Origin: a virus
Length of the DNA stretch: 64,000 bases
IMG/VR virus record: IMGVR_UViG_3300045988_154156
Strand: one strand, 5' to 3'
The notes under the pieces were generated by a model that did not search any database, was not told the DNA's origin, and was given only the letters and a program-made list of their open reading frames with translations. The position numbers were made by a program, and so were the translations under genes. How positions within the stretch are numbered: position 1 is the first letter of the stretch; each line of letters starts with the position of its first letter. Below are positions 1-64,000 of the stretch, piece by piece.

Positions 1-108
1 TCTGGTTCAATGCGTAAATTGGTATCTGATGGATTTGTAGAAAAAGTGAGTCAAAATCCAATTGTTTATACTTTAACAGAAAAAGGTAAAAATATTGAAA
101 TTGTGTAA
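1..108 (+). CDS. 3' end of a CDS truncated by the window edge (…KLVSDGFVEKVSQNPIVYTLTEKGKNIEIV*); looks like a winged-helix C-terminus
   Basis: Open frame from base 1 to TAA at 106-108; a strong RBS for the next gene follows. Confidence 0.35.
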   Translation, partial: SGSMRKLVSDGFVEKVSQNPIVYTLTEKGKNIEIV

Positions 109-130
109 TTATTAAGGAGAAAAATAATTT

Positions 131-1063
131 ATGAAGAAAACTATGGAAAATGTAACTCATATTGAAGGTATTTTGTATGAACATAATTTGGAATCAAAGG
201 TTTCTGGACCTAATTCTAAGACTCCTGGCACTCCTTTTATTTCTGGTACTATTAGCATCGCTACTGATGATGCTTTAACTAATATCGTTCAAGTTCATTT
301 TACTTATGTAACTCCTACAACTTCTAAGGGAAGTGCAAACGCCACTTATACTCTTCTTCAGAATATTATTGATGGCTTAGTAGGTACTTATATGAAAGAT
401 GGTGCTGATAAGGCTGCTAAACTTCGTGTTGATTCTGCTATTGGTTTGAATGAATTCTATTCTGATCGTAACGGTAAGTCAGAACTTGTTAGCACTAAGC
501 GCAATGAAGGTGGATTTGTTCATCTGACTAATACTTTAGCAGAAGATGAAAAAGTAAGAAATACTTTTAAGTGTGATATGGTTATTACTGGTGTAACTCA
601 TATTGATGGTGATGAAGAAAAGAAACTTCCTGAGAAGGTAATTGTTAAGGGAGCAATTTTTGATTTCCGTAAAGCTTTATTGCCAGTTGAATTCTCTGCT
701 ACCAATCCAGGAGCTATGGCTTATTATGAAGGACTTGGTGCTTCTAACTCAGAACCAGTATTTACTAAGGTTTGGGGTCGTCAGGTATCTGAAACTATTG
801 TGCGTGAGATTCGTGAAGAATCTGCTTTTGGTGAAGATAATGTTCGTGAAGTACAGACTACTCGTAAGGACTTTGTAATTACTGGTGGCGCTAAGGATCC
901 ATATCCTTGGGATGACGAAGAATTCTTGACCGCAAAGGAATTAACTGATGCTATGACTCAGCGTCAGACTTATCTTGCTACTATTAAGCAAAGACAAGAT
1001 GAATACAAGGCGGCTAAAAATGCAAGCATCGCTGCTCCTGCTCCCGGTGGATTTAATTTTTAA
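131..1063 (+). CDS. Hypothetical protein, 310 aa with no in-frame TAG; possible ssDNA-binding or annealing partner of the adjacent Sak4-like ATPase (uncertain)
   Basis: Intact ORF with RBS AAGGAGA 8 nt upstream, TAA stop, and position next to the Sak4-like gene. Confidence 0.7.
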   Translation: MKKTMENVTHIEGILYEHNLESKVSGPNSKTPGTPFISGTISIATDDALTNIVQVHFTYVTPTTSKGSANATYTLLQNIIDGLVGTYMKDGADKAAKLRVDSAIGLNEFYSDRNGKSELVSTKRNEGGFVHLTNTLAEDEKVRNTFKCDMVITGVTHIDGDEEKKLPEKVIVKGAIFDFRKALLPVEFSATNPGAMAYYEGLGASNSEPVFTKVWGRQVSETIVREIREESAFGEDNVREVQTTRKDFVITGGAKDPYPWDDEEFLTAKELTDAMTQRQTYLATIKQRQDEYKAAKNASIAAPAPGGFNF

Positions 1064-1078
1064 TAAATAGCCAATAGA

Positions 1079-1104
1079 TGATGGTCTCTAGAGAGGCCAT
1101 CATG
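1079..1104 (+). other. 11-bp stem-loop (ATGATGGTCTC-TAGA-GAGGCCATCAT) downstream of the first gene, with no T-tract
   Basis: Inverted repeat read directly from the sequence. No U-run follows, so it is not a classical intrinsic terminator. Confidence 0.3.
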
Positions 1105-1219
1105 CTAAACTAAATATATTATATGATGATGATGTTTTGTTAAATAAAGAAGAAATAGATAAATTACTAAATGAATATTGTAAATTATTTGAATTGGAGA
1201 AAAAGGAGAAAATTAAATA

Positions 1220-2209
1220 ATGGCTATTAATCTGTTAGGCCTTACCCCTCATAAGGTTAGTCGTGATCTTTCTGGATATATTACTTATATCTATGGTGCT
1301 GAAAAATCTGGTAAAACTACTTTTGCCTCTCATATGCCTTCAGCATTGATTCTTGCTTTTGAACGAGGATATAATGCTTTACCTGGTGTATTAGCACAGG
1401 ATATTACTTCTTGGGGCGATATGAAGCAAATTCTTCGAGAATTAAAAAAGCCAGAAGTAAAAGAAAGATTTAAGTCTATCGCAGTTGATACAGTTGATAT
1501 TGCTGGATAGTTCTGCGAAAAATATGTTTGCGCACAAAATAGTGTAGATACTCTTTCTGGTATTCCTTATGGACAAGGTTGGACCCTTGTAAAGAAAGAG
1601 TTTGAGGAAATGTTTAGAACTATTGCTCAGCTTGGTTATGCTGTCGTTTTTATTTCTCATAGTAAAGATAAGACTTTTAAGACTAAGACTGGCGTAGAGT
1701 ATAATCAAATTATTCCTACTTGCCCTACTTCTTACAATGATATTGCTAAGAATATGGCTGATATTTATGCTTATGCTGAGAAATATACTGAAAATGGTGA
1801 AGCTAAAGTTCGTTTAATCCTACGTTCTGTTGATAACAGTGCTGAAACTGGTTGCCGTTTTAAGTATATTGTTCCTTCTATTGAATTTTCTTATGAAAAT
1901 TTGGTTAAGGCATTGAATGATGCTATTGATAAGGAAGCTCAGATGTATGATAATAAATTCGTTACTGATCAGCGTGAAGCAACTTCTATTGCTAAGAATT
2001 ATGATTATGATGCTTTAATGGCTGAATTCCAGCAATTAGTTGGTGATTTAATGGCAAAGAATTCTGAGTATTATGCTCCTCGTATTACAAGAGTTATTGA
2101 AAAGTATCTTGGTAAGGGTAAGAAAATTTCAGAAGCTACAATGGATCAGGCAGAGTTCATTAGTTTAATTATTAATGAGATTAAGGAAGAATTAGTTCCT
2201 CAGTCTTAA
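1220..2209 (+). CDS. Sak4-like RecA-family recombination ATPase (AAA_24), with one in-frame TAG at 1508-1510
   Basis: Walker A GAEKSGKTTFA and Walker B-like IAVDTVD. ORF fragments 1220-1510 and 1610-2209 share a frame and are joined by a single TAG. RBS GGAGAAAAAGGAG. Confidence 0.8.
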
Positions 2210-2218
2210 TAAGATAGA

Positions 2219-2258
2219 CCCAAGGCGAGATAAAAATCGCCTTGGGTTGATTTTTTTA
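2219..2258 (+). terminator. Rho-independent terminator (CCCAAGGCGA-loop-TCGCCTTGGG followed by TTGATTTTTTT)
   Basis: 10-bp GC-rich stem followed by a T-run, immediately after the Sak4-like gene stop. Confidence 0.75.
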
Positions 2259-2275
2259 TTATTTTATGTTATAAT
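2247..2275 (+). promoter_or_regulatory. Sigma-A-type promoter TTGATT-N17-TGtTATAAT
   Basis: -35 at 2247-2252, 17-nt spacer, extended -10 TGTTATAAT at 2267-2275, about 35 nt upstream of the gene starting at 2311. Same architecture as the promoters at 11545 and 19976. Confidence 0.65.
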
Positions 2276-2310
2276 ATATAAAAGAAGAATTTTATGAAAG
2301 GATATTTTAA

Positions 2311-3261
2311 ATGAATATTAGTTTAACCACTAATTGTAATAATCATTGCCCTTATTGTTTTTAGCAAAATATTCATAATTTAAATATGGAAATATCCATC
2401 GAAAATTATGAAAAAATTTTAAAATGGGGACAGGATTATGATAAAGAATATATCCAATTATTGGGTGGAGAACCTACTTTATATTTAAAATTGCCTGATA
2501 TATTTGAAATAACAAATAATTATAAAAAGAAAATAAGTATAATTACTAATTTATTAGGATATAAAGATAATATTGAATTAATAACTCATTGTAATAATAT
2601 AGGTAGTATATTAATTAATACTACTTATGATGATAATAAAAAAGAATTATTTTTATCTAATATGGAACTTATAAAAAATACTTCCTTTTATAAAAGTTTT
2701 AGTATTACTTTAATGCCTAATAAAATTAATAATATAAAATATATTAACCGAATACGAGAATTATCTTTATTATTTCCAATGATTACGGAATTAAGAATTG
2801 GTTTAATGACTCCTTGCCCTGACTAGGATGATTTTTTTATTTATAATTATTCAGAGGATATAATTTTTTTAATAAAAGAATTACAGGGATCTAATTTAAA
2901 TTATTTAACTTTTGATTGTAGTATTAATTTATGTGAATTAGATTTTTCATTATTTAAATTATTAGCTGAAAATTAGATAAATAATTTATTTATTAATTTA
3001 ATAAATGTCACTTGTCCTGGGCCATGTATAGATATTATGCCTAATTTAGATATAAAATATTGTTATTCTATGTCTAAATTTTTTCCAACTAAAAATATTA
3101 CAGATTTTAATAATTATACTGAAGCTTATAATTATTATAATTCTTTAAATAAAAAATATTAGATTAAAAATAATAAATGCTTAAATTGCATTAATTTCCC
3201 AATATTATGTTAGCCTTGTCCTAGTATAGATTAGGCATTATTAAAAATAGAAAAGAGATGA
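2311..3261 (+). CDS. Radical SAM enzyme with C-terminal Cys-rich SPASM/twitch-like domain (about 316 aa, about 6 in-frame TAG)
   Basis: N-terminal CNNHCPYC (CxxxCxxC) motif, then LLGGEPTL. C-terminal Cys clusters (CSINLCE…CPGPC…CLNCINFPILCQPC). Single frame with all interruptions TAG and a TGA terminator. Confidence 0.75.
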
Positions 3262-3265
3262 ATAT

Positions 3266-3793
3266 ATGGCTCATAAAGTAAAATGTATCTATTGTTAGCA
3301 AGTATTTGATAGAGATAAATATCCATATATTCAAGTATCTTCTAGACGATATGCGCATCCTGCTTGCGCACAAGCAGAGAATAAAAAAAAGCAAGAAGAA
3401 GAAAATGATAAAGAAAAATTTGAAAAATATGTAATGAATTTACTTGATGAAACTTATATTAATGCTCGTGTACGCAAATAGATGAATACATATATAGAAG
3501 ATTATAATTATACTTATTCAGGAATGTTAAAAGCTTTAGTTTATTTTTATGAAGTAAAAGGTAATAGTAAGGCAAAAGCTAATGGTGGTATAGGAATTAT
3601 TCCATATATTTATAAAGATGCTTATAATTATTATTATAATTTATGGATGGCGCAACAGTCGAATCAAGGTAAAGTTATACAAGATTATGTACCAAAAGAA
3701 AAAGTGGTAATAATTCCATTACCAAAACGAATACCTATGAAACGAAGACTATTTACATTCTTGGATGATAAGGAGAATTAGAGTGAGTAGTAA
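3266..3793 (+). CDS. Small zinc-ribbon-like protein with a Tyr-rich C-terminal half (MAHKVKCIYCQQ…HPACAQ… IPYIYKDAYNYYYNLW)
   Basis: ATG at 3266; C-x2-C…H-x2-C motif; two internal TAGs in frame; runs into the dnaB start. Confidence 0.5.
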
Positions 3794-5312
3794 ATATGTT
3801 GATTCGACTGCTATTATGTAGGTAATTGGTTGTGTTTTTAATACTCCTCAATTATTAGATTTAACTGATAAATATACTATAACTGATGAAGATTTTGCTG
3901 ATCAATTTCATCGTATAGTTTTTGGAGCTATTTATAAGATTCATGAATTAGGAGCTGAAAAAATTACATTAGAAAATATTTCTGATTTTTTAGCAGACCG
4001 TCCTAAATATGAAGGAATTTATAAAGCTAACAAAGGTGAAGAATGGTTATTAAAAGTAGCTGAAAATGCTAAAATTTTATCTTTTGATTATTATTATGGT
4101 CGTTTAAAAAAGATGTCATTACTTCGTGCTTATGATAATTATGGTATTGATGTATCTTTTATATATGACCCTGATAATATCTTAGATGTTGAAAAAAAGC
4201 AATTACAAGAAGAAAATTTAGATAACTCTACATTGGAGCATATTGCGCAATTAGTAGATGATAGAATAGATGAAATTAAATATGAATATGTAAATAATGT
4301 AGAAGGTGTCGCTGTACAAGCAGGTACTGGAATATTTGATTTAATTGAATCTCTTAAAGAGCATCCAGAAGTAGGAAGCCCTCTATATGGTCCATTAATT
4401 AATACAGTTACTCGTGGCGCCAGATTAAGAAAGTTTTATTTGCGATCTGCTGCTACTGGCGTTGGTAAAACTCGTTCTATGATTGCCGATGCTTGTAATA
4501 TTGCTTGCAATAAAATATATAATGAAAATTTCGGTTGGATTAAAAATGGCGTTAGTGAACCAGTTCTTTATATCGCAACAGAACAAGATTTAAGTGAAAT
4601 CCAAACAATGATGTTAGCTTTTCTTTCTAACGTGAATGAAGAGCATATTATAAATGGCTCATATGAAGGCGATGAAGAAGAAAGAATAATTCAAGCTGGC
4701 CAAATTATTGAAGATAGTCCTATTTACTTACGAGAATTACCTGATTTTTCATTACAAGATGTAGAAAATGAAATTAAAAAAGCAATTAGAGATTATGGAG
4801 TAAAGTATATTTTTCACGATTATATTCATACAAGTATGAAAATTTTAGAAGAAATTACTAAACGAAGTGGTGGAGTTAAATTGCGTGAAGATAATATTCT
4901 TTTTATGTTATCAACTCGATTGAAAGATATTTGTAATCAATATGGAGTATTTATTATGTCTGCTACATAGCTGAATGGTGATTATGTAGATTCTAAAACT
5001 CCTGACCAAAATTTACTTCGTGGCGCAAAATCTATTGCAGATAAAATTGACTATGGTTCAATTTTATTAAATGTTCAAGATGATGATTTAATTGCTCTAA
5101 AAGATATATTAAGTGCTAATTTATTTGATACTCCAACTATTAAAATGTCTGTTTATAAAAATAGACGAGGTAGATATAAAGGAATAATTTTATGGTGTAA
5201 AGCAGATTTAGGTGTATGTAGAATTACTCCTATGTTCTGTACTACTTATAATTATGAATTAGTACCTATTGATGATATGAGAATTATGATTGAAGAAGAA
5301 TCCGCTTTTTAA
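3783..5312 (+). CDS. dnaB: DnaB-family replicative DNA helicase (509 codons, 2 in-frame TAG)
   Basis: GTG start 7 nt after AAGGAG. N-terminal DnaB-like domain (…VIGCVFNTPQLLD…), Walker A AATGVGKT, and IFHDYIHT…MSAT motifs. Frame continuous through ORF 4113-4970. Confidence 0.85.
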
Positions 5313-5329
5313 TGAAAGGAAAATATATT

Positions 5330-5512
5330 ATGGATAAGAAAGAAATTATTGGTGGAACTATTGAATATAAGATGCCTAAAGAAATGGCTAATATGTATTT
5401 AAAGACTGCTAAAGGAGAGTTTGCTAAAAAGCATCCTCAAGAATACCTTATTAAGGTAGTTAATGAAGAATTCGGCGTTAAAGGTACTTGTATTAATGTA
5501 ATTACATTCTAA
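5330..5512 (+). CDS. Small hypothetical protein (about 60 aa)
   Basis: ATG with AAAGGA RBS. The stop overlaps the primase start (TAATG). Confidence 0.4.
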   Translation: MDKKEIIGGTIEYKMPKEMANMYLKTAKGEFAKKHPQEYLIKVVNEEFGVKGTCINVITF

Positions 5513-6615
5513 TGATAGTATTTGATAAATTAGAAATAAGACAAGCATTAACTCTTGATAATATTTTTGATTTATTAATTGAATGGGGTGGAGATCCTGA
5601 ATATACTGATTTTGGGATAGTCTCCACCACCATTTGTCATAATCATCCAGGTGAAGGTAGCCGTAAATTATATTATTATGATAATACAGGACTATTTAAG
5701 TGTTACACTGGATGCGATTCTACTTTTGATATATTTGAATTGTGTTCTAAGATTATGAATATTCAATTTGCTGAAACATTTGATTTAAATGATGCTGTTT
5801 TATGGATAGCTCGCAGATTTGGGTTATCAGGTATGATTAAAGATGATAATGAAGGCAAAACTTTAGATGATTGGAAAGTTCTTTCTAATTATGCTAAAAT
5901 TCAAGAAATTGAATTAAAAGATAGTAGAACAACATTAAAAACTTATGATGATTCAATATTATCAAGATTAAATTATAAAGTAAAACTTACTCCTTGGTTA
6001 AATGAAGGAATTTCGCAAGAAGTCCTTACCAAGGCACATATAGGTTATTATCCAGGAGGAGATTAGATTACCATTCCTCATTATGATGTAAATGGTAATT
6101 TTATAGGATTGCGCGGACGTACTATGTGTAAATCTGAAGCGGAAGTATATGGCAAATATCGTCCTATTAAAATTAATAATCAATTATATAATCATCCTCT
6201 TGGACTAAACTTATATGGTTTAAATTGGAATAAACAAGCTATTAAAAAAATGAAGAAGGTAATTATTTTTGAATCTGAAAAATCAGTTTTGAAATATGCT
6301 ACTTATTTTGGATGGAATAATAATATTTCAGTAGCTTGTTGTGGTAGTAATATTTCTTCACATCAAATTCAATTACTATTAGATTGCGGTGTAGAAGAAA
6401 TTATTATTGCTTTTGATAGATAGTTTCAGGCAATTGGTGATGATGAATTTAAACATCTTAAAATTAATTTATTAAAAACTAGAACTAAATATAAAAATTT
6501 TGTTACTATATCTTTTATATTTGATAAAAATATGATAACTCAATATAAAAATAGTCCAATAGATGAAGGAAAAGAAAAATTTCTTCAACTATTTAAAGAA
6601 AGGATTTTAATTTAA
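5512..6615 (+). CDS. dnaG: DnaG-like DNA primase (zinc-binding plus TOPRIM), 2 in-frame TAG
   Basis: CHNHPGEG…CYTGC zinc-ribbon-like motif. TOPRIM-like IIFESEKSV and IIIAFDR. Located right after dnaB. Fragments 5512-6066 and 6109-6423 are in one frame, joined by TAG. Confidence 0.7.
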
Positions 6616-6616
6616 C

Positions 6617-8356
6617 GTGGAATATCATTTAAAGGCTCCAATGATTCCAGGTTATAGTCCTATAGAACAAATTCTTAATAATAGAGGTATTAAAAATATC
6701 TATCATTATTTACATACTACAGATGATGATATTCTTGATCCTTCTACTATTATGAATATAAAAAATGGGGCCATAATGCTGGTTTCACATATAAATAATA
6801 ATGATAAAATTTTAATATAGATAGACAGCGATTGTGATGGTTATACATCCGCCGCTGCTTTAATTAATTATTTACATAAAATCTGTCCTGCTTTTGTAGA
6901 AAATAATATTTCATATCGAGTACATGAAGGCAAATAGCATGGGATATTATTAGATAGTATTGGCAATGATATTAAATTGGTTATTGCTCCAGATTCTTCG
7001 TCAAATGATTATGAAGAACATAAATAGCTTAAAGAACATGGAATTGATGTATTAGTAATAGATCATCATGAAGCAGATAAAGTTTCTCAGTATGCTTGTA
7101 TAATTAATAATTAGTTATGTAACTATCCAACTAAATCATTATCTGGTGTCGGCATGGTTTATAAATTTTGTAGTTATTTAGATAAATTAATGAATGTAAC
7201 ATATGCTGATGACTTATTAGATTTAGTTGCTCTTGGCTTAATTGCTGATATGATGGATTTACGAGATTATGAAACTAAACGGCTTATTGATAAAGGTTTA
7301 AATCATATTATTAATCCATTTATTAGAACGATGATTAATAGAGATGCTTTTCATTTTTCGAATGGTATTACCCCAATTGATGTAGCATTTTATATTGCTC
7401 CTTTAGTAAATGCTGTTACTCGAGTAGGCACATAGGAAGAAAAATTAGTATTATTTGAATCTATGTTAGATTTTAAAGGATATGAATTAATTCCTTCAAC
7501 TAAGCGTGGTTGTTCTGGTAATGCCGAGCCTAGAGTAGAGTAGGCTTGTAGAAATTGTACTAATATTAAAAATAGATAGACTAGAACTAGAGATGCTGCT
7601 TTAGAGACTATTGAGAATTTAATTACTGCTAATAATTTATTAGAAAATAAATTATTAGTTATTTAGTTAGATAATATTTCTGCAGATCGCAATTTAACAG
7701 GATTAATTGCTAATTAGTTAATGAGTAAATATTAGCGTCCAGTTTTAATTTTAAATAAAGTATTTCATAATGATGGAACAATTACTTGGGAAGGGTCTGG
7801 ACGTGGTTATGATAAATCTAGTTTGAAAGACTTTAGATAGTTCTGTCAAGATACTGGATTGGTTATGTATGCGGAAGGCCATCCTAATGCTTTTGGATGC
7901 GGTATTACTGATGATAAAATTTAGTTATTTATTACAATTACAAATGAAGTACTAAAAAATGTTTAGTTTATTCCATCTTATACAGTTGATTTTATTTATC
8001 ATAATGTTGATGTAAAGCCTGAAGACATTACAGATATTGCTACATTAAAAAATCTTTGGGGACAAGGAATAGAAGAAGCGTTAATTGCTTTGGAAGATGT
8101 TCCTGTGACTGCTGAAAATTTAAATTTAATGGCAAAAGATAAAAATCCTACATTAAAAATTACTTTACCAAATAAAATTAGTATTATTAAATTTAAATCT
8201 TCAGAAGAAGAATTTGAAAAATTATATACTGAACATGGTAAAGTATCTATTAATATTATTGGGCGTTGTTCTGTTAATGAATGGAACGGAATTATAACTC
8301 CTTAGATTTTAGTAGAGGATTATGAAATTGTCAGTAGGAGTGAATATTATTTTTAA
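6617..8356 (+). CDS. RecJ-like DHH-family ssDNA exonuclease / phosphoesterase (about 579 codons, about 14 in-frame TAG)
   Basis: DHH motifs DSDCDGYTSAAAL and GIDVLVIDHHE, plus a GGH-like region (EGHPNAFGCGI). GTG start after GAAAGGA. Every interrupting stop is TAG. Confidence 0.7.
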
Positions 8357-8735
8357 AATAAAAAATATTGAAAGCGCAACTTTTTATGATAAAGATGGAA
8401 ATGAAGTTTTATATTGTAACGGAATAAATAATAGAATCAATCTTTCAGTAGATTCTAATGATTTAAAAGTGTATGGTGGAAAAGGTAATCCTAATATTGG
8501 CTAGATACATTATGAAAAAATTTTAAACCTTTCATTACAAATGGATGAAATTAATATTTCATAGAGTCTGCTCCGCCCGGAGAGGATAGACACAACCGAA
8601 AACCTAAATCAAAATGACGATTAGAAAATTTTCGATCAAAATGAATGGAATAAATTTTTATCTATGTTAGACTCGCCTCCACTAGAAGAAGAATTAACTT
8701 TAATTGGAAATGAATTTTTAAAGGATAAAGAATAA
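8322..8735 (+). CDS. Hypothetical protein (about 137 aa, 3 in-frame TAG); contains the GC-rich patch at 8565-8600
   Basis: Continuous frame MKLSV…GNPNIG(TAG)IHYEKILNLSLQMDEINIS(TAG)SLLRPERIDTTEN…DD(TAG)KIFDQNEW…KDKE* ending at TAA. Confidence 0.5.
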
Positions 8736-8738
8736 AAT

Positions 8739-9020
8739 ATGAAAGAATTAAAAAAAGTAGTAATGAAAGCACAACAATTTGATAATATATCAGAAAATTT
8801 ACAAAATATAGAAAAACATACAAAAGGTTTTATGTATGATAGCCTTTGTTATAGATATCAACTTGCTAGGTATAAAGCCTGCGAAGCAGATGCTATGGAT
8901 TTAATTATAACAAAAGGTTTATCTAAAAGAGAAGCTGAAGCTAAAGCTAGAAATTTATATGAAAGAGATTGTCTACGATTTTATCAAATTCTTGATGAAG
9001 CAATTGGAGAACATGATTAA
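8739..9020 (+). CDS. Small hypothetical protein (93 aa); paralogue of the next gene with an identical C-terminal tail …ILDEAIGEHD
   Basis: ORF with RBS. C-terminal 10 aa nearly identical to gene 9020-9346. Stop/start overlap TAATG. Confidence 0.55.
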   Translation: MKELKKVVMKAQQFDNISENLQNIEKHTKGFMYDSLCYRYQLARYKACEADAMDLIITKGLSKREAEAKARNLYERDCLRFYQILDEAIGEHD

Positions 9021-53115: not shown

Positions 53116-55431
53116 TTAATATACTTTTGATATAGCTTTGGTGGCACTAATAGACATTGTTCCATTATAACTTAACGGAATAGTTAATTTATTAACTAAA
53201 TATTCTCCTTCTACGCCACTTTTTTTATCTTCAATATAAATTCTAGTATTTGGTTCTAAATAATAAACTGGTAAAGTAGTTATTGTACTACTTTCAGTAC
53301 AATAAGCAGTTGTCTATAATAAATCTTCCATTTCATCAATGGCACTTTTACCCATAGAACTAATACTAAAATAATTATCATAATTTTTAGGGACATTTAC
53401 CCAAACATATCCAGTTTCTTGAGGATAATTATTTTCAACAATTCGATCATAGTCTCCTTGATTTAAAAATAACACTTCAGGTACATCTCTATAACTTATA
53501 ACTTTTATATTAGTATCATTAACTGCTTTTGTTCTATCACCAATTAACTTTATTGAATACTTGCTAATATCACTATTTTCTTCTCCAATAAAATCAAACC
53601 AAAAATCTAAATTTTCTGGATATTGCTTAACATTATCATAGAATGTACGATGTTCAAAATCATAAATCTAACGCCAAAATGAAAAAATATCAGCATAATA
53701 TGTTTCATATCCAGTTACTCCAGAAGGATAGAGAGTAGGGTTGGCGGCTGCTACTTTATGGAGAAAATCATCACCATAATTATATTGATAATAATCAACA
53801 GCCATACGATATATAATTTCGCGCCAATCACAATAAATTATACCTGCCGGATCTCCATCTTCAGGGTAAGCTTTAAATGTTTGCTATTTTAGCTATAAAT
53901 TCATTGTTTGAAATATTTCATTATTATAAGTTAAAGTTTTATATCTATTAATATCATCTTGAGTAACTATAATAGTTGTATATTGAACAGGCTTTGTGTC
54001 AATAGCATAACGCATATGGATTGGAAGTTCTTCTCCACTTGCGGATTTGCGCTATCCCCAAATTGAAAAATCATTTCTTAATATATTAATCTAAGGATTA
54101 TTAGCGAACTAAGTTACTATCTAACTATCCTTAAATGAATAAGTATAAGAAGAAGAATAAACTGCCGGTTTAATATAACTTTCTCCTTCTGATTTTTTAA
54201 CTATATTATTCCATGATTTAAAATCGTAAAATTTTTTGCGCTAAAAAATAAACCTACCATCAATATCATAAAAATATTCAAAACAACTTAACATATTCTT
54301 AATTTTGTCTAAGACTGATGTTAAAGTATCACCAACATTAGTTATTAAATCTCCAGCATATACTAAATCACAAATTCGATAACCGACTGGTTCTCCATAC
54401 GATTTTTTAGCAATAGTATAAACTGTAGGATTAGGCGTATCTAAAGATAAAATAATTCTAGTTGGCTAATTTTCTTCTCCTAATAACTTATAAGAATCTA
54501 GCTAATCAAATATAATCTATTCAAGAGGAATTGGTCCATGACTTATTTCTTCATATAAATTAGGAAGATTATCTCCAATTACTACATTCACTACACGACC
54601 TGTCTCAGCATCTCTAAAGAAATACATATCAGCATCACATTTATTTTGTAATAATTCATAACCATATTCATCTAAATCATTAATAACAATATTAGATTCT
54701 AATTCTTTACCATAAACCATCAAGGCTTTTTTAATAATAGTCTTAATAGGTACTTTAACTAAATCTAAAATACGTTCACGATAATAATAAGTTCTATTTT
54801 CTGTTTTAATTTCATTTTCGTCTAAAACATAATATATTTTCTCATTGCCATTAGTAGCAATATAATAATTATTATACTTTTTTGCTTCTTCTTCACTATT
54901 CACTCTAAAACAGTAATGTCCAGCATCATAGTTAAAATCATTATCTTGAACAATATAATTATATTTAATAACTTCTTCCTAACCAAAGTCAATAGAAGCA
55001 GGTAAACTTCCTCCAAGGTCACCGTTTAATAAACACATTTTATCTTTACCTTGAATAGAAATTGTATAATTACTAGCGCTTTGAGAAGTATTAAAAGAAG
55101 TTATTAAATAAATACCTTCATTAAACCAAATAATATCAGGGTAATTTGAATCAATAGTATTTTTTAAACCAACAGCAAGATTAAATTTAGATTTTAGTCC
55201 CCACATATATTGCTTATATAACTAATCATTTGTTACCATAGTCAAAGAACAAGATCTGCGGACAGCAGATGACCCATCAATATTAATAGATCCAGTCGTT
55301 ATCTTGCCTTCAATCGTTTCTATTGGTAATTCATCAAAAGTCATTAACTCAATACGTGCATAAACTTCACGTTCATGGAGACTATCTAATTTTCTTAAAA
55401 ATTCTTTATCAAGATTCTATTGATGTCTCAT
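53116..55431 (-). CDS. Virion structural protein (about 771 aa)
   Basis: ORFs 54979-55206 and 54517-54903 and the terminal segment are all in the same frame; ATG 55431; TAA 53116-53118; about 17 TAG. Confidence 0.5.
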
Positions 55432-58288
55432 AATTATTTATAGCCTCTTTCAAATATTTAATAAATAAATTATATTTATTATTTACATCAGCTTGCTTAG
55501 TTTTTATCATATCATTATAAGTTCTTAACTACGATTCATACAGAGAAGCGTTGATTGAATTTGGAGTAAATGGTAACATATAGACTCCATCATCTGAATT
55601 ATCATCTTCTCCGCGCTTTAGTCCCTGATATACCTATAAATCATTATAAGCTTTTTGCCATTCAGTTTTTAACTAATAAATAGTCTTTTCAACATAAGTG
55701 TTTCCAGTAAAAACTTTATATTTAGTACTATTATCGTTTTCAAAAGAAAATACTTTCTCTTGACGTTGAATAGATAATTCACATAAAATCCCAGGATCAA
55801 TTTCTACTGAAGTAATATCACTTAAATCAGTAACGAAATATTCATTTTTATGAGTAATATCAATTAATTCTTTATCATCATTATTAAAACGAATTTTATA
55901 ATCCCATTCATCTTCTGTAACTAATCGGCCATTATAAGTGATTGGCTTCTAAGTATTACCATCATAAAAATAAGGCACAGAATCAGTAGGAGGATTATTC
56001 ATTTCTGTTGATAAATTATAAACCTTATAAATTAAAGATCTATCAAAAGAAGTTAATAAATCATTTGATTTTTGTTCACGAGCGCCACCAGGAGATAAAT
56101 AGAATTTCTTTCCATCTAAAGTATAAATAGTCTATAATTCTCGTTTAGTAAAACGCATAAAATAAATCTTTAATACAGTATATTTTAAGTCATCCTAATA
56201 CTAATCTAAAATATTGCCGCCATCCACACTATAGCATTGCTCTAATGGTAAATCAGCGATTTTAACATCTTCTATAATATCAAATTTGCTTTCTTGAGTT
56301 CCCATAAATGAATACTCGATAGTTCCTTGCTAAATACCCTAATCAGAAATGTTTACAATTTCTAATGTATATACTGGCATTGAATGGTCAATTAAATAAG
56401 CACCAGTAACACCAATAACTACTTCTTCATTATTAATTTTAAATTTGTCTCCTGCGCTAAATCCTTGTAAGCGCAATGTTATCGCAGGCCCATTAAAGAT
56501 TAAATTTTCTGTATATAATCTTTTATGAGTGGGATTTAATGAATCATTTTCTACTTTACAAAATTGATAAGTAGCTAGTAATGATTCAATATTAACCTCT
56601 AATTCTCTTTTAGTTTGATTTAACTTATTAATAGATTCAGTATTTGTTTCCGTTGTTAATCTATCAATACAATCATTATAACTTTTAAGGCAACTATTTA
56701 ATTTATAAATCCCATAAAGAGATAAACTATTCCATTTAAGAATTTCACTATTAGGTTCATCAGCATCAACAAATCCATAAGAATTAAGATTATCAAAAGT
56801 AACCTTATCAATCTCATAAGCTGTTCCTTTAAATGAATGTAACATACGTCCTAATGTATCTTGCGGAGTTAATGTAACATTTAAAAGTCTAACAATAAAA
56901 TTGCCTTCTGCCGGAGATTTAAACAATTTAGGCTTTCCGTTAGTTAAAAATTCTAAAACTTTAGTTTTAAATTGACGCTCTATATTATAATTATAATCTG
57001 TTAAATCAGTGCTAGTAAAATCCTTTATTTCATCATTTCCTAATTTATTTATAAATAAATGACTTTCATCTTGTAAATAAGAAATTAGCCCACCAATAGG
57101 AAATTCATGATAATAAGTATTTCCATTACGGAAAATATAAGGATATTGACTTCCTATAGTATCCATTTTAGTTTCTAAAGTATTAATTTTAAAACTTTCT
57201 ACTTTAGGATTAAATCTAATTTTTAACAATCTACCATTTTCATATAAAAAGCTATCTTCAAATATACTATAAATTATATTAGATAAAATTTTATTTGAAC
57301 GCAAAGAAGTTGCATCACTATACTATTGAATAGCATACTGATAAGAAAATCCATGCTCAACAGTAAAGTCTTTATATAATACACGACTAGGCGCTTCACC
57401 AGTTAATTTAAATTTAAGAATAGGATTCCAAGAACTATAGTTATCTTCACTACTAGCTCTTAAAAGAATAAAAGCTCCAGTAGCAGGAATCTCTGATTTA
57501 GTAGCAGCATCTTTAATACCTTTTAAATTAATTTGCGCAAATCCATTATTTTCATCCATGACTGCTTGTAAAGTAGCACGAATTTCAGGGTCAATCGTTT
57601 CTCTATTAATAATACGATATTCAGGACTAGTCGCCTCATAATTATTAATTGTAGTAACTTTATACTAAATATAATAATTTTTACCTTTAATTAATTCTTT
57701 ATTTAACTCAAAACTATCATATGACTCATATAACTGTTCATCATTGATAGTGTTATGTAGCTATTCTCCAGAAGTAGCAAATACATTATGGTATTCATCA
57801 TATACAATAAATTGATAAGAATAAACTCTTTCAGTTACATCACCATTATATTGACTATAATGACCAATAAAATTAGTTTTATTAATACCAATACCACCTG
57901 ACTCCAATCCTTCAATTTCTACTTTTGGATCTGTAGTATATTTAACAATACCAACTGTAGAATAATATCCTATAACTTTATTATTATCAATATAAGCTAA
58001 TTGAACCTTATAAGACTACCCTAAATTTAATTGAAAAGCATTGCCATTAATTTGTTTAAACTTTAATTGGAAAGTAATTGAACCACTATTAATAGCATCT
58101 TGTGCTTGAGATGAAACAATCTAACCTTGCGCAATTACTACATTACTTTGTATAGTTTTAAATATATAAGCGAATCCACTAACTTCTGCCGCACTTACAG
58201 TTTGATTCATCTGGAACGGAATAGTTAATTCCGTTCCAGTAAATGCAGGTAGCGTTCCACTTATATAAGGCGGATATAATTTATTCAT
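55409..58288 (-). CDS. Virion structural protein (about 959 aa)
   Basis: RBS AAGAGGAGGA before ATG 58288; ORFs 57323-57559 and 56339-57304 in the same frame; TGA 55409-55411; about 16 TAG. Confidence 0.5.
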
Positions 58289-58291
58289 AAA

Positions 58292-58453
58292 TTATTCCTC
58301 CTCTTGTTTTTGTTGTGTATTATTCTAACGATAAATGAATTCTTTTAAACTTTTAATACATTCTCCCATTAAAATAGTATCTTCACCTTTCGTAGAAATA
58401 CAAATTAATGTGTTATATAAAGCATTTAAATAATTTAAATCCTCTTTATTCAT
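58292..58453 (-). CDS. Small protein (53 aa)
   Basis: ATG overlaps the upstream TAA (TAATGA); 1 TAG. Confidence 0.35.
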
Positions 58454-61400
58454 TAGTTTTTTTCCTCCTTTAACTCTTTCACTTGAAGCTTTAATTCTTC
58501 AATCTCTTTCATTAAATCTTGTGTGACTGCAATATTTAATGTAAATAAACTATTATAATTTAATGATAATAATTGTTTTTCATCTTTTTTTATTAAACTA
58601 TTATCATTTAAATTATTTTCCTGTAAAATATTTTCAATATCCTAAGCAATAAAACCTAAATAAGTTCTATCAGATAATTTATATTTATAACTAACAGGTT
58701 TTAATTCACTAAATAATTTTTTATAATCATTAATATGATTATAACTAATATTAGTTTTTAATCGTTTATCAGATTTTACACTAATTTCTTCGCTAGAGAA
58801 ACACCCTGAACCTGTTACATAAATCTAATTACCATAATAATACATAGAAGCACCACTATTAGAAGCAGCAACATATCCTCCATTAGCAGCATACATCTAA
58901 ATACCTCTTGTACTTCCTGCTCCACTACTACCTACATAAGAATACTCAATTCCACCATAGCCACTACGAGAAGAATCTAATTTTGAAGCTAAACCATTAA
59001 TTGCACTCTATGCCTAAGAAGCAGCACTCTATGCCTATTGAGCTGCGCTAGCAGCAGCATTAGCAGCCTCTTTAGCATCTTCAGCTGTCGTCTATAAATA
59101 TGTTAAAATTGAATTTAATGAAGTAGTATCATTATTATCAAACCAACTTAAACGCCCATTTTTATATTTAATATAAATATCTCCATTGAATGTTCCTGTA
59201 TTAGCCCACACATACCCATTATTTAAATCAATCTTCATACCAATTTTACCATTATCAGCATAATTTTTTGATTGTAAATAATAACTATTATTACCAACAT
59301 TCATTAAAGTATCATATCCAACTGGATCTCGAATAGTCAAATAATTTGTGCTATTAGCACCGCTATTAATTGTAAAAACTGAACTGCCTTTTATTTTACA
59401 ATCTAATAAATTACTCTCTAAATTAAGTAACATACCATTACCATTAGTAATATCATAAGTAGCAGATTTTAAAAGACATTGATTACCATCTAATATAATA
59501 CGACCTTTACCATCTTTACCAAAAAATGCCGTACCATCTTCTCTTAAAGCGAATGACTATTCTCCTTGATGGAATCCATATATGCCACACTAACCACTAA
59601 TACTATTATCTGATATTGATTCACCATTAGGGCTCCAATCGCCCATCAATACACCAGAAAAAGTATTATCATCATTTTTCTTACCGGCAGCAATCTAACT
59701 AGCTAAAATGCTTCCGCTTGCTTCATTTAATACTAAAGACTTACCATCCCATTTATTTATCATAGATGAAGGATACTTATTCTATAATATTAAAATAGGC
59801 TAAGTCCATAAAATATTTCCCTAAGCATTTTTACACTGTACCGCATACTAGGGAGCACCATTTACATATATTGCTAAAGGATATAAATATGATTTATTAT
59901 TAATTACTTTAATAATTCCATAAAAATCAGATTCAGCAGTAGAAGTTCTTCTATAATAAGTTCTAGAGCCAGAACTGCTATATACTTTTTCATAATAATT
60001 AATTGTTCTATAAGTAGTAGAAATTAAATTATTATTACTATCCTTTATATAATAACTTTCTCCATCAATCGGATTTCCTACAATATCAGTCCCTAAAGTT
60101 TTTTTATAATAATTTAATTTATTAAATATAGAATATACATAATTATTATTATTTCCACTCCTAATATAACAATTACTGTAATCAATAATATCACCATTAG
60201 GAATTACTTTATAACTATCTTTACTTGCATCTAATGAATATAGTGATGGTCCAGTATATATAAATTTATACATAATATTATTTTGTTTAAAATAATAAGT
60301 AGATAACCGTACTAAATCATTAAAAGTACAAGTAGTAGTCGCACCATCAGAACTTTCATCTATTTCAGAAACATAGTATTCTTTAAAATCATAAGAAATT
60401 ATTGTATTATTTTTAAAAATATAATAGGTGGTATTATATTTCCATGAATTTTTATTAACAGACTAATATTTTGTAAAATATAATTCTTCAAAATCAAAAG
60501 GATAAATTGCACTATACTAAAACTAAGAATCACTAGCTAAAAATCTATATTCTTTTCCAGATTCTAAATCACTTATAGAAGTAATTTTTTCTCCATTAGT
60601 ATCATAAAGATTATTTATTAATTTATTATAACTAATAATAGAAGTCTAATTATAAGGTCCGCTACTATTAGTACGCTTAGTATTTTTTATAGTATATCTT
60701 TTATCAGGAATTTTCTAAATATCAATAATAGATAAATCACTTATTTTAGAATTTTTATCATAACTAATATCTTTATAAATTCCCTAAAGAGTGCTATAAT
60801 CTTCATTGGAAACATCATAATAAGCATAATATGGAAATTTATCAATTAAATTATTAATAGAAACAATTACTTTATTAGTTGCTAAATTATAAAATGTTTG
60901 AGCATCATAATAAGCAGAAATATAATTGCCTGTAGCTTCATCCTTCTAAAAATATAATGTTCCATCTATTAAATTATTAGGAGGAACTAAAGTATATTTT
61001 ATATCCTAACTACTTTGATAAAAAACAGTACTATCTATTGGCAAATAAAAATTCAACTAATCAATATCATTTGAACTAGCACTTACGTATAAATATTTAC
61101 CATTATCATCGCGTATATATCCGCTCGATACTTTTTTATATAAATCCTAATATTTAAAAAGATAAGAAATTGAACCATTTGAATTATAATAAGTTTCATT
61201 ATTAATTAAATCCCAATAGCTATCAACTAAAGTATATTTATTTTTGCTAGGATTTAATCTATAATAAGTCTAAGAAATTCCACTATATACAACTTCTGTT
61301 ACTCTATCTTCAAGATAATATTTTTTTCCTATGGTTGGATTAGAAACTAATCTAAAAGTCATATTAGAAGATAAAGTAGTTGGAATATAAATATCTTCTC

Positions 61401-63699
61401 CATTACTATTTTGTTCTTTATAATAATAAGTTTTATATTTTAATTCTTCAGATGTTGGATTACATACCGTATATTGATAACCATTAGAAGCTGGATAAAT
61501 ATCCCAATAAACATCTTGAATCTAAGTTAATTGTTTATCATTACCATATAATTGATAAGGTTCTTTAGAAAAAACAGCTTCACCATCACTTAAATAAATT
61601 ACCTAAGTGGGTCCATTAATATAGCTTCCTTGTCCAGAAGTAATCGGAATAGGATAATAAGCAGTTAATAAATAATTACCCCAATTCTATAATGTTACTG
61701 ATAAAATATACATTTTATTCATTAATGAATTTTTATTTAATACTGCGAATGTGATTTCATTAGATTTACCAGCTATAGTCTTTAAATTTACATTAGGATC
61801 ATCTACATTTAAAGACCATATACAATTATAACCACTTAAATCTATTTCTTTACCAGTATTATCATATAAAGAAGCTCTAAATTTATAATCTTTAACTTCT
61901 CCAGAAGTAATAGCAACAATTGGGTTACCAACTTGATCATCAACTAAATCAATAACTAAAGTACAATCAGTACCATTCGTGCCAGCTTGCCCAAATGTAA
62001 ATTCTTTTTTAGCTGTATATTCAACATTATCGCGTTTAATTTTCGCAATAACTATATTATTTGATTTATTCGCACTATAAAAATTATTTACTTTATATTT
62101 AACTATAAAATCTTTATCATTAGGATTATTAGATTTTATCTAATAATAATTATTATCATAATCTGTTAAAGTCTATCCTTCTAAAGCAAAAGACATCATA
62201 CTATTTTTTGGCAACAACCATAATACTTCTTGCGCTTCAGTTAATTGACTTTCATTTTCACTATTATTTTCCGTCCCATAAGTTTTAGAATTAAAATATA
62301 ACTACATAGAACGAACAATTTTATTATCGACAGTATTTAATAAATAATTTGCCTAATCATAAATTAAATAATTACCATTAGTACCATCAATGCAATGAAT
62401 AGATAAAGCATTTAAAACATCAACTGTTGCATCATTAGGTACTAGCATATCATTATTAAAAGTAATTATATTGCTGTAATAATATTTATTATTATATCTA
62501 ATAATAACTTTATATCGCTCATCCTGCTTTTCCGTCCGAGGAGTAAATTCATAATTAAACTAATTAGTATTATCTACGAATGTCCAATAAACACCACAGC
62601 GTTCATCCGCAGATGGCGCTCCAAAATCATATCTATACCATAGAATTTCTGCGCCCGCAGGCAATCTACTAATTTGAGATTTATTATTATCATCATCAAA
62701 ATGAATCCATTTTAAATGAATAGATTTTTTACTAACCTAACCATTAATAACTTTATAATTTAATCCATCATTGGTATAAAGTCTTAAAAATTCTCCATTT
62801 ATTTCATCTAAACCAATACCAAGACTAAAATAAATATTTTTTACAAATATATTATTTGGCAAAACAGAGGTAATACCAGTAGTTCCCTCCGTTAATTGAG
62901 TAGGTATTTTCTTATTATTTTTATCATAAAAATTATCATCTTGATATAAAAACACCTAAACTTTGTCTATGCGTGCAAGAGCGCTAATATCAATAACTAT
63001 TTCCTAAGAATAATATCCTTCAAAATTATATGGATTACCATACATATCTGAAGTATCTAATCTTACTTTATAAGTGCTAGTGGTAGAATTAAATTTTTCC
63101 GCAGTAGTTTCTTTTACTCCAGTAATAGCAATTTCTAAACCATAGTTACCTTGAACAGTACCTAACTCTTGAAGCCATGCTCTAAAATCTGCGCGCAATC
63201 CTAACCGTGTAAAACCTTGACAACTAGATGAAATTTTTATTCCATTATTATTCGAATCCTCTTCGTCTATTGGAGTAATTTCAATAAATCTTTCATCGCC
63301 ATTAGCAAGAATACTCCATAAAGGTTTATTATTCTAACCAGCAATAAACATATTACCAGTTAAATCAACAAAAGTATTAAAAGGATTTACATAATTATAT
63401 GGCTTATCCTAATCTTTATCTTCTTTTTTACCAACTATAAATTTAGTATTATTAAAATCACCTTTAGGGATTTGAACATATACTCTGTTATTTTTATTAT
63501 AAGTAGTAATTTGGGAGAAAGCATCAAATTCAGAATATGATTCATTCTTTACTCTATATTGCCCTTTTAATTTATTACTATCATCAATAATCGTACATTC
63601 AATAGTATTATCATAAGTAATCTTATCAACTGCCGATTTGGCAATAATAGATATAGCTTCGCATATATTTTCCTGAATATTTGTAGCATTATCAGCCAA
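58453..63699 (-). CDS. Giant tail spike/fibre (about 1,748 aa) with C-terminal intramolecular chaperone auto-processing (peptidase S74-like) domain
   Basis: RBS AAGGAGGG plus TTG start. Five long ORF fragments are all in one frame to TAA 58453-58455. C-terminus …VKSDKRLKTNISYNHINDYKKLFSELKPVSYKYKL…LGFIA(TAG)DIENIL… matches S74 motifs SDKRLKxNI and GFIAQE. About 50 TAG. Confidence 0.6.
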
Positions 63700-63780
63700 A
63701 ATAATCCCTCCTTTTACTCATTATTCTATAAATTAGTGAAAAATTGTCCTACTTTATTAAATATATCTACCCAAAAAGAA

Positions 63781-63815
63781 AAAGGTGAGATCCATTAAGA
63801 ATCTCACCTTCATTT
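63781..63815 (-). terminator. Intrinsic terminator (AAGGTGAGAT-loop-ATCTCACCTT) with a T-rich tail on the - strand
   Basis: 10-bp stem; follows the partial gene that ends at 63817. Confidence 0.65.
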
Positions 63816-63816
63816 T

Positions 63817-64000
63817 ATTTACGATTAGCATATTGCGAAGCTACATTAATTAATGTGTTAAATGCTTCTTGAATTTCATTCCTATCAGTTACGTTCGGGA
63901 AGCTAGCATCAATATGAACCTATTGTTCTAATATATCATTACCAGTTCCAAAAGTGCTATAAATTGGATTAATTGGCATTGTAGTATATCTACTGCGCAA
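63817..64000 (-). CDS. 3' end of a CDS entering from beyond the window (…IQEAFNTLINVASQYANRK*)
   Basis: Open frame from the window edge to TAA 63817-63819; 2 TAG. Confidence 0.35.

What the first reader, a model, noticed from the sequence alone, without database searches (positions are those of the whole stretch)
1..64000. Amber (TAG) stop codon reassigned to glutamine throughout the element (code-15-like recoded phage)
**Pattern of interruptions.** Nearly every gene on both strands is split by in-frame stops, and every one is TAG; none is TAA or TGA. Reading frame is conserved across each interruption. TAA and TGA terminate all genes. TAG is never followed by a plausible 5' end; where it sits near a gene end, a TAA or TGA follows within a few codons.

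**Conserved motifs spanning TAG.** Three independent motifs place TAG at an invariant Gln:
- helicase motif III AGDPG-TAG-LPPI (GDxxQLPP) at 9953-9976;
- S74 chaperone-domain motif GFIA-TAG-DIENIL (GFIAQE) near 58640;
- LL-H holin motif VIATN-TAG-TYVESLK (ATNQTYV) near 26760.

**Missing machinery.** No suppressor tRNA(CUA), RF2 or GlnRS gene is recognisable in the window.
Basis: partly seen in the sequence, partly recalled or inferred. Interest (0 to 1): 0.9.

Follow-up and report, generated by a model that had tools for sequence, protein, structure and literature searches.

The report
Gut phage reading TAG as glutamine
This 64-kb stretch comes from a common ~200-kb human-gut phage that reads the amber stop codon TAG as glutamine, a known kind of phage recoding, and the suppressor tRNA that seemed to be missing sits in a tRNA array elsewhere in the same genome.

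Summary

- **Reading frames.** Reading TAG as sense raises coverage by ORFs of 100 aa or more from 0.54 to 1.04 of the window. It yields 58 genes covering 97%, with 298 in-frame TAGs in 49 genes. All terminators are TAA (46) or TGA (12).
- **Amino acid.** All three named motifs place TAG on a conserved Gln; in the holin, 133 of 137 homologues have Q. Where standard-code relatives align to window TAGs, Gln is the majority residue at 12 of 26 sites, and at 75 of 174 sites elsewhere in the same phage. Near-identical strains swap TAG mainly with CAG or CAA.
- **Machinery.** The window has no tRNA, but this reflects where the window lies. A 192-kb scaffold 98.6% identical to the window carries 27 tRNAs, the last with anticodon CUA. 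No RF or GlnRS signature was seen, but about 50 kb of the ~195-200-kb genome remains unread.
- **Pattern.** TAG's share of Gln-type codons rises from 0.07-0.17 (early-looking genes, tRNA region) to 0.27 (replication) and 0.45 (tail).

This is a new member of a known kind (Ivanova 2014; Borges 2022; Peters 2022; Babkin 2023). Interest is modest.

The parts
1..64000 (.). Window of a TAG-recoded phage genome: 58 genes, 298 in-frame TAG, GC 28.9%
131..22687 (+). Replication and nucleotide-metabolism arm. Contains YorF-like g02, AAA_24, radical SAM, DnaB, primase, RecJ, RecD-like helicase, DnaE-type Pol III alpha, guanylate kinase, NrdD and a RuvC-like resolvase. TAG makes up 0.27 of TAG+CAA+CAG codons.
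   Evidence: Pfam; PHROGs
22720..63979 (-). Lysis, accessory and tail/structural arm. One + strand gene (25850-26500) is embedded in it. TAG share is 0.38 at 22.7-32.3 kb and 0.45 at 32.3-64 kb.
9968..9970 (+). TAG at the invariant Gln of SF1 helicase motif III (AGDPG-TAG-LPPI) in gene 9551-10744, which has 8 TAGs
26741..26743 (-). TAG in holin gene 26546-26962 (VIATN-TAG-TYVES); 133 of 137 homologue representatives have Q in this column
58642..58644 (-). TAG in the Peptidase_S74 chaperone domain (LGFIA-TAG-DIENI) of tail-fibre gene 58453-63351, which has 38 TAGs
17166..17168 (+). TAG at the conserved Gln of NrdD (SRSGN-TAG-LPFTSINYG) in gene 16233-18476
11604..15599 (+). DnaE-type DNA polymerase III alpha (1331 aa), strongly TAG-depleted: 1 TAG versus 51 CAA/CAG (p=1e-9). 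The single TAG (11787-11789) lies inside the PHP domain, so this gene also needs TAG decoding.
6641..8356 (+). RecJ-like DHH exonuclease (571 aa), TAG-enriched: 14 TAG versus 4 CAA/CAG (p=8e-4)
40274..48049 (-). Largest gene in the window (2591 aa, 39 in-frame TAG). Function not determined.

Best explanation
**What it is.** The window is about one third of a ~195-200-kb, AT-rich, SPbeta-related tailed phage that is common in human and primate gut metagenomes. In this phage UAG is a glutamine codon (genetic code 15). TAA and TGA remain the only terminators.

**How it works.**
- The phage brings its own decoder. Outside the window it carries an array of 22-27 tRNA genes whose last member has anticodon CUA.
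- That array lies in a TAG-poor part of the genome, next to a GC-richer block of short, almost TAG-free genes.
- These parts can be expressed under the host's standard code. Once the suppressor tRNA accumulates, TAG-containing genes become translatable: replication genes first, then lysis and tail genes.
- The suppressor is presumably charged with Gln by host enzymes.

**Shown.** TAG is in frame. TAG corresponds to Gln. The CUA tRNA is present on a 98.6%-identical scaffold that encodes an exact window protein. TAG density follows a gradient along the genome.

**Inferred.** The host uses the standard code. Expression follows a temporal order. Which enzyme charges the suppressor. Whether the host's RF1 is counteracted.
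For: - **ORF statistics and gene map:**
- **TAG at conserved Gln:**
- **Residues opposite TAG in standard-code relatives (raw DNA):** Q in 46% of cells at window sites and 31% in the strain's tail and tape-measure region. The profile matches that of ordinary CAA/CAG codons.
- **Best-fitting residue:** Q scores twice the runner-up.
- **Interchange with Gln codons:** TAG aligns with TAG or Q in recoded relatives. It swaps with CAG/CAA in 98-100%-identical strains.
- **Gln content:** rises from 2.4% to a normal 3.9% when TAG is counted.
- **tRNA array with a CUA member:** in L188-L195. The tRNA is conserved with compensatory T-stem changes and scores 45.6 bits on Rfam tRNA.
- **Link to the window:** scaffold_41 carries both the array (L194) and the exact g02 protein (L198). 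L198 is 98.6% identical to the window.
- **TAG-share gradient:** 0.07-0.17, then 0.27, then 0.38-0.45.
- **Literature model:** Borges et al., bioRxiv 10.1101/2021.08.26.457843.
Against: - The suppressor tRNA was not seen on a contig proven to contain the window itself. The 99%-identical strain contig breaks just before the array.
- Every replication gene examined except g02 has at least one TAG, DnaE included. A strict 'early genes are standard-code' scheme therefore does not hold for the replication module.
- The suppressor does not resemble the array's tRNA-Gln(UUG). Its anticodon arm is tRNA-Trp-like, so Gln charging rests on alignment evidence only.
- One NrdD TAG (17838-17840) aligns with a conserved F/Y.
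- No RF2 or aaRS was found, but about 50 kb of the genome was not read.
- No proteomic evidence is available.
Confidence: 0.9

Rival explanations
1. TAG is decoded, but as another amino acid. Candidates are Trp (the suppressor has a tRNA-Trp-like anticodon arm), Glu (if a non-discriminating GluRS charges it and it is not amidated), Lys, Tyr or pyrrolysine.
For: - The suppressor's anticodon stem-loop is identical to the array's tRNA-Trp(CCA) except at position 35.
- ARAGORN labels any CUA tRNA 'Pyl'.
- E is the second most frequent residue opposite TAG.
- One NrdD TAG aligns with F/Y.
Against: - Q is the majority residue at 12 of 26 window sites and 75 of 174 strain sites, and scores twice E. 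W, Y and K are rare.
- Invariant-Gln motifs carry TAG, and the holin column is 133 Q of 137.
- TAG swaps with CAG/CAA between near-identical strains.
- The tRNA has an ordinary cloverleaf, not the tRNA-Pyl form.
Confidence: 0.04
2. The TAGs are real stops: a decaying phage, pseudogenes, or sequencing or assembly errors.
For: Under the standard code the genes look fragmented. Public databases hold the holin as two fragments, P0267 and P0307.
Against: - There are 298 interruptions, all TAG and all in frame. Domains continue across them.
- The same TAGs are kept in many independent assemblies at 98-100% identity and in dozens of relatives.
- Off-frame TAA is 2.6 times commoner than off-frame TAG and off-frame TGA 1.5 times commoner (62 and 37 versus 24 per 1000 codons), yet neither occurs in frame.
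Confidence: 0.01
3. The phage does not impose the code. Its host already reads UAG as Gln or supplies the suppressor, and the phage's tRNA array is incidental.
For: - The host is unknown. The only hits in genome collections are MAG bins.
- No RF or aaRS gene was seen.
- Borges et al. detected suppressor tRNAs in only 40% of TAG-recoded phages.
Against: - The family conserves a CUA tRNA.
- Genes around the array and the neighbouring GC-richer block avoid TAG.
- Close relatives with the standard code exist, which argues for hosts with the standard code.
- To my knowledge no bacterium reading UAG as Gln is known.
Confidence: 0.04

Closest known systems
TAG-to-Gln (code 15) recoded gut phages: crAss-like, Lak, and the Garnet, Amethyst, Sapphire, Agate and Topaz clades (Ivanova 2014, from my own knowledge; Borges et al., 10.1101/2021.08.26.457843; Peters et al., PMC9523058)
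   Same: - In-frame TAG at Gln positions.
- Low GC content.
- TAA and TGA kept as stops.
- A phage-borne CUA tRNA.
- Heavier recoding in structural and lysis genes.
- Standard-code close relatives exist.
- Found in human and baboon gut samples.
   Different: - A different lineage from crAss and Lak: replication genes are SPbeta-type.
- 84% of window genes carry TAG, and the replication genes are recoded too.
- Clade membership in Borges' scheme was not tested. The ~200-kb size would fit Sapphire or Jade.
Phage phAss-1 / proposed Phassvirus group (Babkin et al. 2023, PMC10607447)
   Same: - Human-gut phage reading TAG as Gln.
- Large tRNA set that includes Sup-CTA (36 tRNAs, 3 of them suppressors).
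- DnaE-type polymerase; it is among the best deposited matches, at 41% aa identity.
- No dedicated aaRS.
   Different: - Only 41% identity in DnaE, and no nucleotide-level match.
- Genome of ~195-200 kb versus 136 kb.
- One CUA tRNA in each array seen here.
SPbeta-like Bacillus phages and Enterococcus VRE9 phages
   Same: - YorL-type DnaE at ~41% identity.
- Pfam families YorF, YorH, YomU and YonG on near-identical contigs.
- Firmicutes-type accessory genes.
   Different: Those phages use the standard code. Identity to them is low.
E. coli Su+7 amber suppressor: tRNA-Trp with anticodon CUA, charged mainly with Gln (from my own knowledge, not checked in the library)
   Same: The phage CUA tRNA has the tRNA-Trp anticodon arm CCGGU-CUCUAAA-ACCGG with only C35 changed to U. 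It also has G73 and an unpaired or weak 1:72 position. TAG is read as Gln.
   Different: Outside the anticodon arm, identity to the array's tRNA-Trp is only about 60% overall. Charging has not been tested. The host may lack GlnRS.

Membership tests
Code-15 (TAG to Gln) recoded phage | Coding density and ORF length rise sharply when TAG alone is read as sense | tested here: met
   Coverage 0.54 to 1.04; ORFs of 300 aa or more rise from 4 to 21; TGA read-through gives no gain
Code-15 (TAG to Gln) recoded phage | In-frame TAG inside conserved domains, with the frame kept | tested here: met
   Pfam domains span TAGs in RecJ, helicase, NrdD and DnaE; PDB alignments
Code-15 (TAG to Gln) recoded phage | TAG columns correspond to Gln in homologues that use the standard code | tested here: met
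Code-15 (TAG to Gln) recoded phage | TAG is not used as a terminator | tested here: inconclusive
   All 58 genes end in TAA or TGA, but by construction of the ORFs. TAG is not enriched in the last 10 codons (8 seen, 8.5 expected).
Code-15 (TAG to Gln) recoded phage | Phage-encoded suppressor tRNA with anticodon CUA | tested here: met
   Absent from the window. Present on the 98.6%-identical scaffold_41 and on all relatives whose array is fully covered.
Code-15 (TAG to Gln) recoded phage | Protein-level proof of Gln at TAG | not testable with these tools
   Needs metaproteomics, as in Peters et al. (PMC9523058)
Code-change module with RF2 and/or an aaRS (some Lak, Agate and Jade phages) | Phage-encoded release factor or Gln/Trp-tRNA synthetase | tested here: inconclusive
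   No GGQ or HIGH signature in 3.9 Mb of window plus loci. No such Pfam on the annotated loci. About 50 kb of the genome is unread.
Phassvirus (phAss-1 genus) | Nucleotide-level similarity and synteny with phAss-1 | tested here: not met
   No megablast match of 21 kb of the window to any deposited phage; DnaE only 41% identical
SPbeta-related phage group (broad) | SPbeta-type replication genes (YorL DnaE, YorF, YorH, YonG, YomU families) | tested here: met

The most novel reading that the evidence does not exclude
The decoder may be a tRNA-Trp-derived amber suppressor that host enzymes charge with glutamine, a natural counterpart of E. coli Su+7. If the host is a Firmicute without GlnRS, charging would have to go through non-discriminating GluRS plus GatCAB. 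Alternatively, an unrecognised factor in the ~50 kb not read here could be involved. This lineage would then offer a defined, widespread system for working out how phages impose code 15 without their own synthetase or release factor.
Probability: 0.2. Interest if true: 0.55.

Novelty: new member of a known kind. Interest (0 to 1): 0.3.

Why it matters
**Annotation.** Genes of this very common gut phage are shattered under table 11. Public databases hold its holin as two fragments, so it should be annotated with table 15.

**Biology.** It adds a well-resolved SPbeta-related example to the recoded-phage catalogue, with three features of use:
- standard-code relatives at 60-65% protein identity;
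- a clear gradient of TAG use along the genome;
- a conserved CUA tRNA with a Trp-like anticodon arm.

These make it a convenient system for two open questions raised by Borges et al.: who charges the suppressor, and how RF1 is handled.

**Caution.** 'Recoded phage without a suppressor tRNA' can be an assembly artefact. The 125.8-kb strain contig ends a few kb before the tRNA array.

Tried and rejected
- **No deposited close relative.** Megablast of 21 kb of the window against deposited phages gave no match.
- **Window-end probe.** An exact 40-mer from the window's end found nothing in viral contigs.
- **Wrong contig offset, corrected.** I first read L003 as showing that the window starts 469 bp into the 125.8-kb contig. 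L116 showed the offset is about 13.46 kb.
- **'tRNA-less phage', rejected.**
  - Seven scans walked the strain contig end to end, and 182 loci (3.4 Mb) had no tRNA. For a time I considered the phage tRNA-less.
  - The contig turned out not to be closed, and relatives carry the array just beyond its end.
- **Fossil stop codons.** I tested for an excess of TAG near 3' ends and found none: 8 observed versus 8.5 expected.
- **Pfam LL-H holin.** No hit.
- The protein given as letters with X was accepted.
- **RF and GlxRS motif screen.** Negative, but crude.
- **Host search.** The genome-contig scan returned only MAG bins: Acutalibacteraceae, 'Tenericutes' and Bacilli. This is too weak for a host call.
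- **Apparent 520-bp gap at 50.1-50.6 kb.** It is a TAG-free ORF without an early ATG.
- **Circularity caveat.** Database proteins on these contigs were already predicted with TAG read through, so Q in close database homologues is circular. My tallies therefore use raw DNA of relatives classed as standard-code, PDB sequences, and distant cluster representatives.
Full report
**1. The observation**

The window has 28.9% GC and no Ns. I compared how much of it is covered by stop-to-stop ORFs of at least 100 codons under four readings:

| Reading | Coverage | ORFs of 300 aa or more |
|---|---|---|
| Standard code | 0.54 | 4 |
| TAG as sense | 1.04 | 21 (13 of them 500 aa or more; the longest frame is 2,592 codons) |
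| TGA as sense | 0.65 | 4 |
| TAA as sense | 1.61 | 5 (only 1 of 500 aa or more: the non-specific gain expected in AT-rich DNA) |

With TAG read through, a simple caller gives 58 real genes covering 97% of the window. They form two arms that match the GC-skew switch near 22 kb. The + strand carries genes from 131 to 22,687 and the - strand from 22,720 to 63,979.

The gene set holds 20,590 codons with 298 in-frame TAG, 441 CAA and 58 CAG. All terminators are TAA (46) or TGA (12). Forty-nine of the 58 genes carry at least one TAG. Off-frame TAA (62 per 1000 codons) and off-frame TGA (37) are commoner than off-frame TAG (24), yet only TAG occurs in frame, at 14.5 per 1000. Counting TAG as Gln raises the Gln content from 2.4% to a normal 3.9%.

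**2. Which amino acid**

*Named motifs.* I masked TAG as X so the alignments could not be biased.
- The RecD-like helicase (9551-10744; Pfam AAA_30, AAA_19, UvrD_C_2) aligns its AAGDPG-X-LPPI to GDPAQLPPV of 9kwf and GDNKQIRPV of T4 Dda.
- NrdD aligns SRSGN-X-LPFTSINYG to SRGGNQVVFSSINYG (8p23) and to Q in 9d3x.
- The tail-fibre C-terminus matches Pfam Peptidase_S74. It aligns LGFIA-X-DIENIL to GLIAQEVEAVL of 6f45.
- The holin matches PHROG 13712 at E=6e-35 and has no Pfam hit. I searched it against 1.84 billion cluster representatives. Q occupies the TAG column in 133 of 137 aligned homologues.

*Standard-code relatives.* The phage belongs to a large family in IMG/VR. By ORF-coverage ratio, some relatives use the standard code and most are TAG-recoded.
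- In tblastn against raw DNA of the standard-code relatives, window TAG sites are opposite Q in 33 of 72 cells. These cover 26 sites, against a background Q frequency of 3.5%.
- For a 99%-identical strain, in its tail and tape-measure region, the profile at TAG (Q 31%, E 13%, K 7%) matches that at ordinary CAA/CAG codons (Q 37%, E 12%, K 10%).
- Summed BLOSUM62 scores rank Q first by a factor of two. The scores are 54 versus 27 for E in the window, and 374 versus 194 over 174 sites outside it. Q is the majority residue at 12 of 26 and 75 of 174 sites.

*Interchange with Gln codons.* In recoded relatives TAG aligns mostly with TAG or Q, and about 10% of CAA/CAG sites align with TAG. Among assemblies 98-100% identical to the window there are 14 sites where a TAG is gained or lost. 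Nine of them involve CAG or CAA.

*One exception.* The NrdD TAG at 17838-17840 (AIG-TAG-IGL) aligns with F/Y in both structures.

**3. Where the machinery is**

The window has no tRNA by ARAGORN or Rfam, even at E<=5.

I walked a 99%-identical IMG/VR strain contig (IMGVR_UViG_3300026522_000023 = Ga0256406_1000168, 125,780 bp) from end to end. I found no tRNA in it, nor in 182 loci from relatives. A positive control worked.

The contig is not closed, however. Both ends fall inside genes, and relatives continue past its end without reaching its start.

Using the terminal 134-aa gene as a handle, I reached longer contigs. About 4.6 kb downstream lies a tRNA array. An AAA/nSTAND3 ATPase gene sits inside the array and gave further entry points. 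Every array that is fully covered holds 22-27 tRNAs. Each ends in the conserved order Pro(UGG), Gln(UUG), Tyr, Val, then a tRNA with anticodon CUA.

The link to the window is direct:
- Scaffold GAIO21-1_SAMN11098166_METAG-scaffold_41 (192,228 bp) carries this array (L194).
- The same scaffold also carries the exact window protein g02 with its syntenic replication module (L198).
- L198 is 98.6% identical to the window over 10 kb. L194 is 96% identical to the strain contig's end.
- A 201,103-bp human-gut contig (PRJEB5224, L205) is 100% identical to the window over 11 kb.

The positions of g02 and the array on scaffold_41, combined with the strain contig, imply a circle of ~195-200 kb. This agrees with the many 193-201-kb contigs among relatives. 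About 50 kb, between the array and the PhoH-like gene, was not read.

No release-factor GGQ signature or GlxRS HIGH signature occurs in any frame of the 3.9 Mb fetched. This is a crude screen, so RF2 or an aaRS cannot be excluded.

**4. The suppressor tRNA**

The sequence in L194 is TGAGGGGTAGCATAGCGGCAAATGCGCCGGTCTCTAAAACCGGATAAGTGGGGTCGGCACCCACCCCCTCCGCCA.
- It folds as a normal cloverleaf and scores 45.6 bits on Rfam tRNA, against a threshold of 29.
- It has an unpaired U1/C72, a G73 discriminator and an encoded CCA.
- Relatives show compensatory T-stem changes, ATGGG/CCCAT versus GTGGG/CCCAC.
- It is not similar to the array's tRNA-Gln(UUG).
- Its anticodon stem-loop CCGGT-CTCTAAA-ACCGG equals that of the array's tRNA-Trp(CCA) except at position 35.

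From my own knowledge, this recalls E. coli Su+7, a tRNA-Trp with anticodon CUA that GlnRS charges with Gln. It is a lead, not a test.

**5. Pattern of use**

TAG use is uneven between genes. DnaE has 1 TAG against 51 CAA/CAG (p=1e-9). RecJ has 14 against 4 (p=8e-4). The tail fibre has 38 against 29.

Along the composite genome, TAG's share of Gln-type codons changes as follows:

| Region | TAG share |
|---|---|
| GC-richer (41%) block of short genes | 0.07-0.13 |
| Around and inside the tRNA array | 0.13-0.17 |
| Replication arm | 0.26-0.27 |
| Lysis region | 0.38 |
| Tail genes | 0.45 |

Outside the window, the capsid-like, scaffold-like and tail-tube-like genes have no TAG, while the 3,120-aa tape measure gene has 108.

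This fits the model of Borges et al.: standard-code-compatible early genes plus the code-change tRNA come first, and recoded late genes follow. Two further points stand out. The most highly expressed virion genes avoid TAG. The replication genes are not TAG-free: DnaE's single TAG lies in its PHP domain.

**6. Comparison with what is known**

Reassignment of TAG to Gln in gut phages is established (Borges et al.; Peters et al., PMC9523058, and Babkin et al., PMC10607447). Borges et al. detected TAG suppressors in only 40% of recoded genomes and rarely found RFs or synthetases. One relative found here comes from a baboon scaffold with Borges-style naming.

The closest deposited phages by DnaE, at 41% identity, are phAss-1, Enterococcus VRE9 phages and SPbeta-like phages. 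SPbeta-type Pfam families label the near-identical contigs. Gene calls on those contigs in the protein collection already read through TAG.

**Verdict.** This is a new, well-documented member of a known kind.

Noticed in passing
window 2302-3258 (gene 2311-3261): A radical-SAM gene (316 aa, 6 TAG, ~24% GC) is a strain-variable cassette. It is absent from the 99%-identical L001, L003 and L198-L202, and present in L203 and L205.
   Followed up: partly
window ~4810-4815, inside DnaB-like gene 3765-5312; L003 4324-5394: The 99% strain carries an extra ~1.07 kb here, splitting DnaB after ...VKYIF. The insert is out of frame, so it looks like an intron or homing-endonuclease insertion rather than an intein.
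   Followed up: partly
window 17838-17840 (NrdD): This TAG, in AIG-TAG-IGL, aligns with a conserved aromatic residue (F in 8p23, Y in 9d3x) rather than Gln. TAG is one mutation away from the Tyr codons TAT and TAC.
   Followed up: no
window 25850-26500 (+): A response-regulator gene (Response_reg domain plus a weak LytTR match, 1 TAG) lies on the opposite strand inside the lysis and accessory region.
   Followed up: no
window 28010-36786 (-): This stretch holds two more radical-SAM genes (29747-30709 and 30702-31976, with 9 and 7 TAGs). Next to them are a 577-aa repeat protein and a 1,344-aa glycine-rich protein with three internal repeats (26 TAGs). The combination could be a peptide-modification or surface module in a phage.
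   Followed up: no
window 37392-37525: A strong hairpin in the 211-bp gap between genes draws several weak, meaningless Rfam hits on both strands. It is probably a bidirectional terminator.
   Followed up: no
window 49864-50577 (-): A 238-codon TAG-free ORF has its first ATG at codon 152. It probably starts at a non-ATG codon, so the apparent 520-bp gap is coding.
   Followed up: partly
L115 ~11300-20576 and L170/L178 (strain contig ~97.8-110.5 kb): A block of about 25 short + strand genes has 38-48% GC, against 29% elsewhere, and almost no TAG. The same upstream sequence recurs before each gene, translating as ...KGIDTM or ...RKELxxM. It includes AbrB/SpoVT-like proteins. It is probably the early region or a module of foreign origin.
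   Followed up: partly
L188 8693-8765 and L189 1353-1425: A more distant relative has, besides the CUA tRNA, a tRNA-like gene with anticodon UUA (an ochre suppressor). It has an imperfect acceptor stem and a 4-bp anticodon stem, and it is absent from the closer relatives.
   Followed up: no
L188 15730-18562; L190 16144-18970; L194 19342-21119: Two tandem genes with the Mtd_N domain (major tropism determinant, the usual target of diversity-generating retroelements) follow the tRNA array.
   Followed up: no
L005 796-3516, 6804-7805 and 9322-9870 (strain contig, outside the window): The capsid-like, scaffold-like, tail-tube-like and chaperone-like genes have no TAG, while neighbours have up to 25 and the tape measure gene has 108. 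Highly expressed virion genes appear to avoid the reassigned codon.
   Followed up: partly
P0267 and P0307 (protein database): The holin of this phage is stored in public protein collections as two fragments, of 64 and 75 aa. The 64-aa fragment ends at residue 73, right at the TAG; the 75-aa one matches residues 84-138. This shows mis-annotation under table 11.
   Followed up: yes
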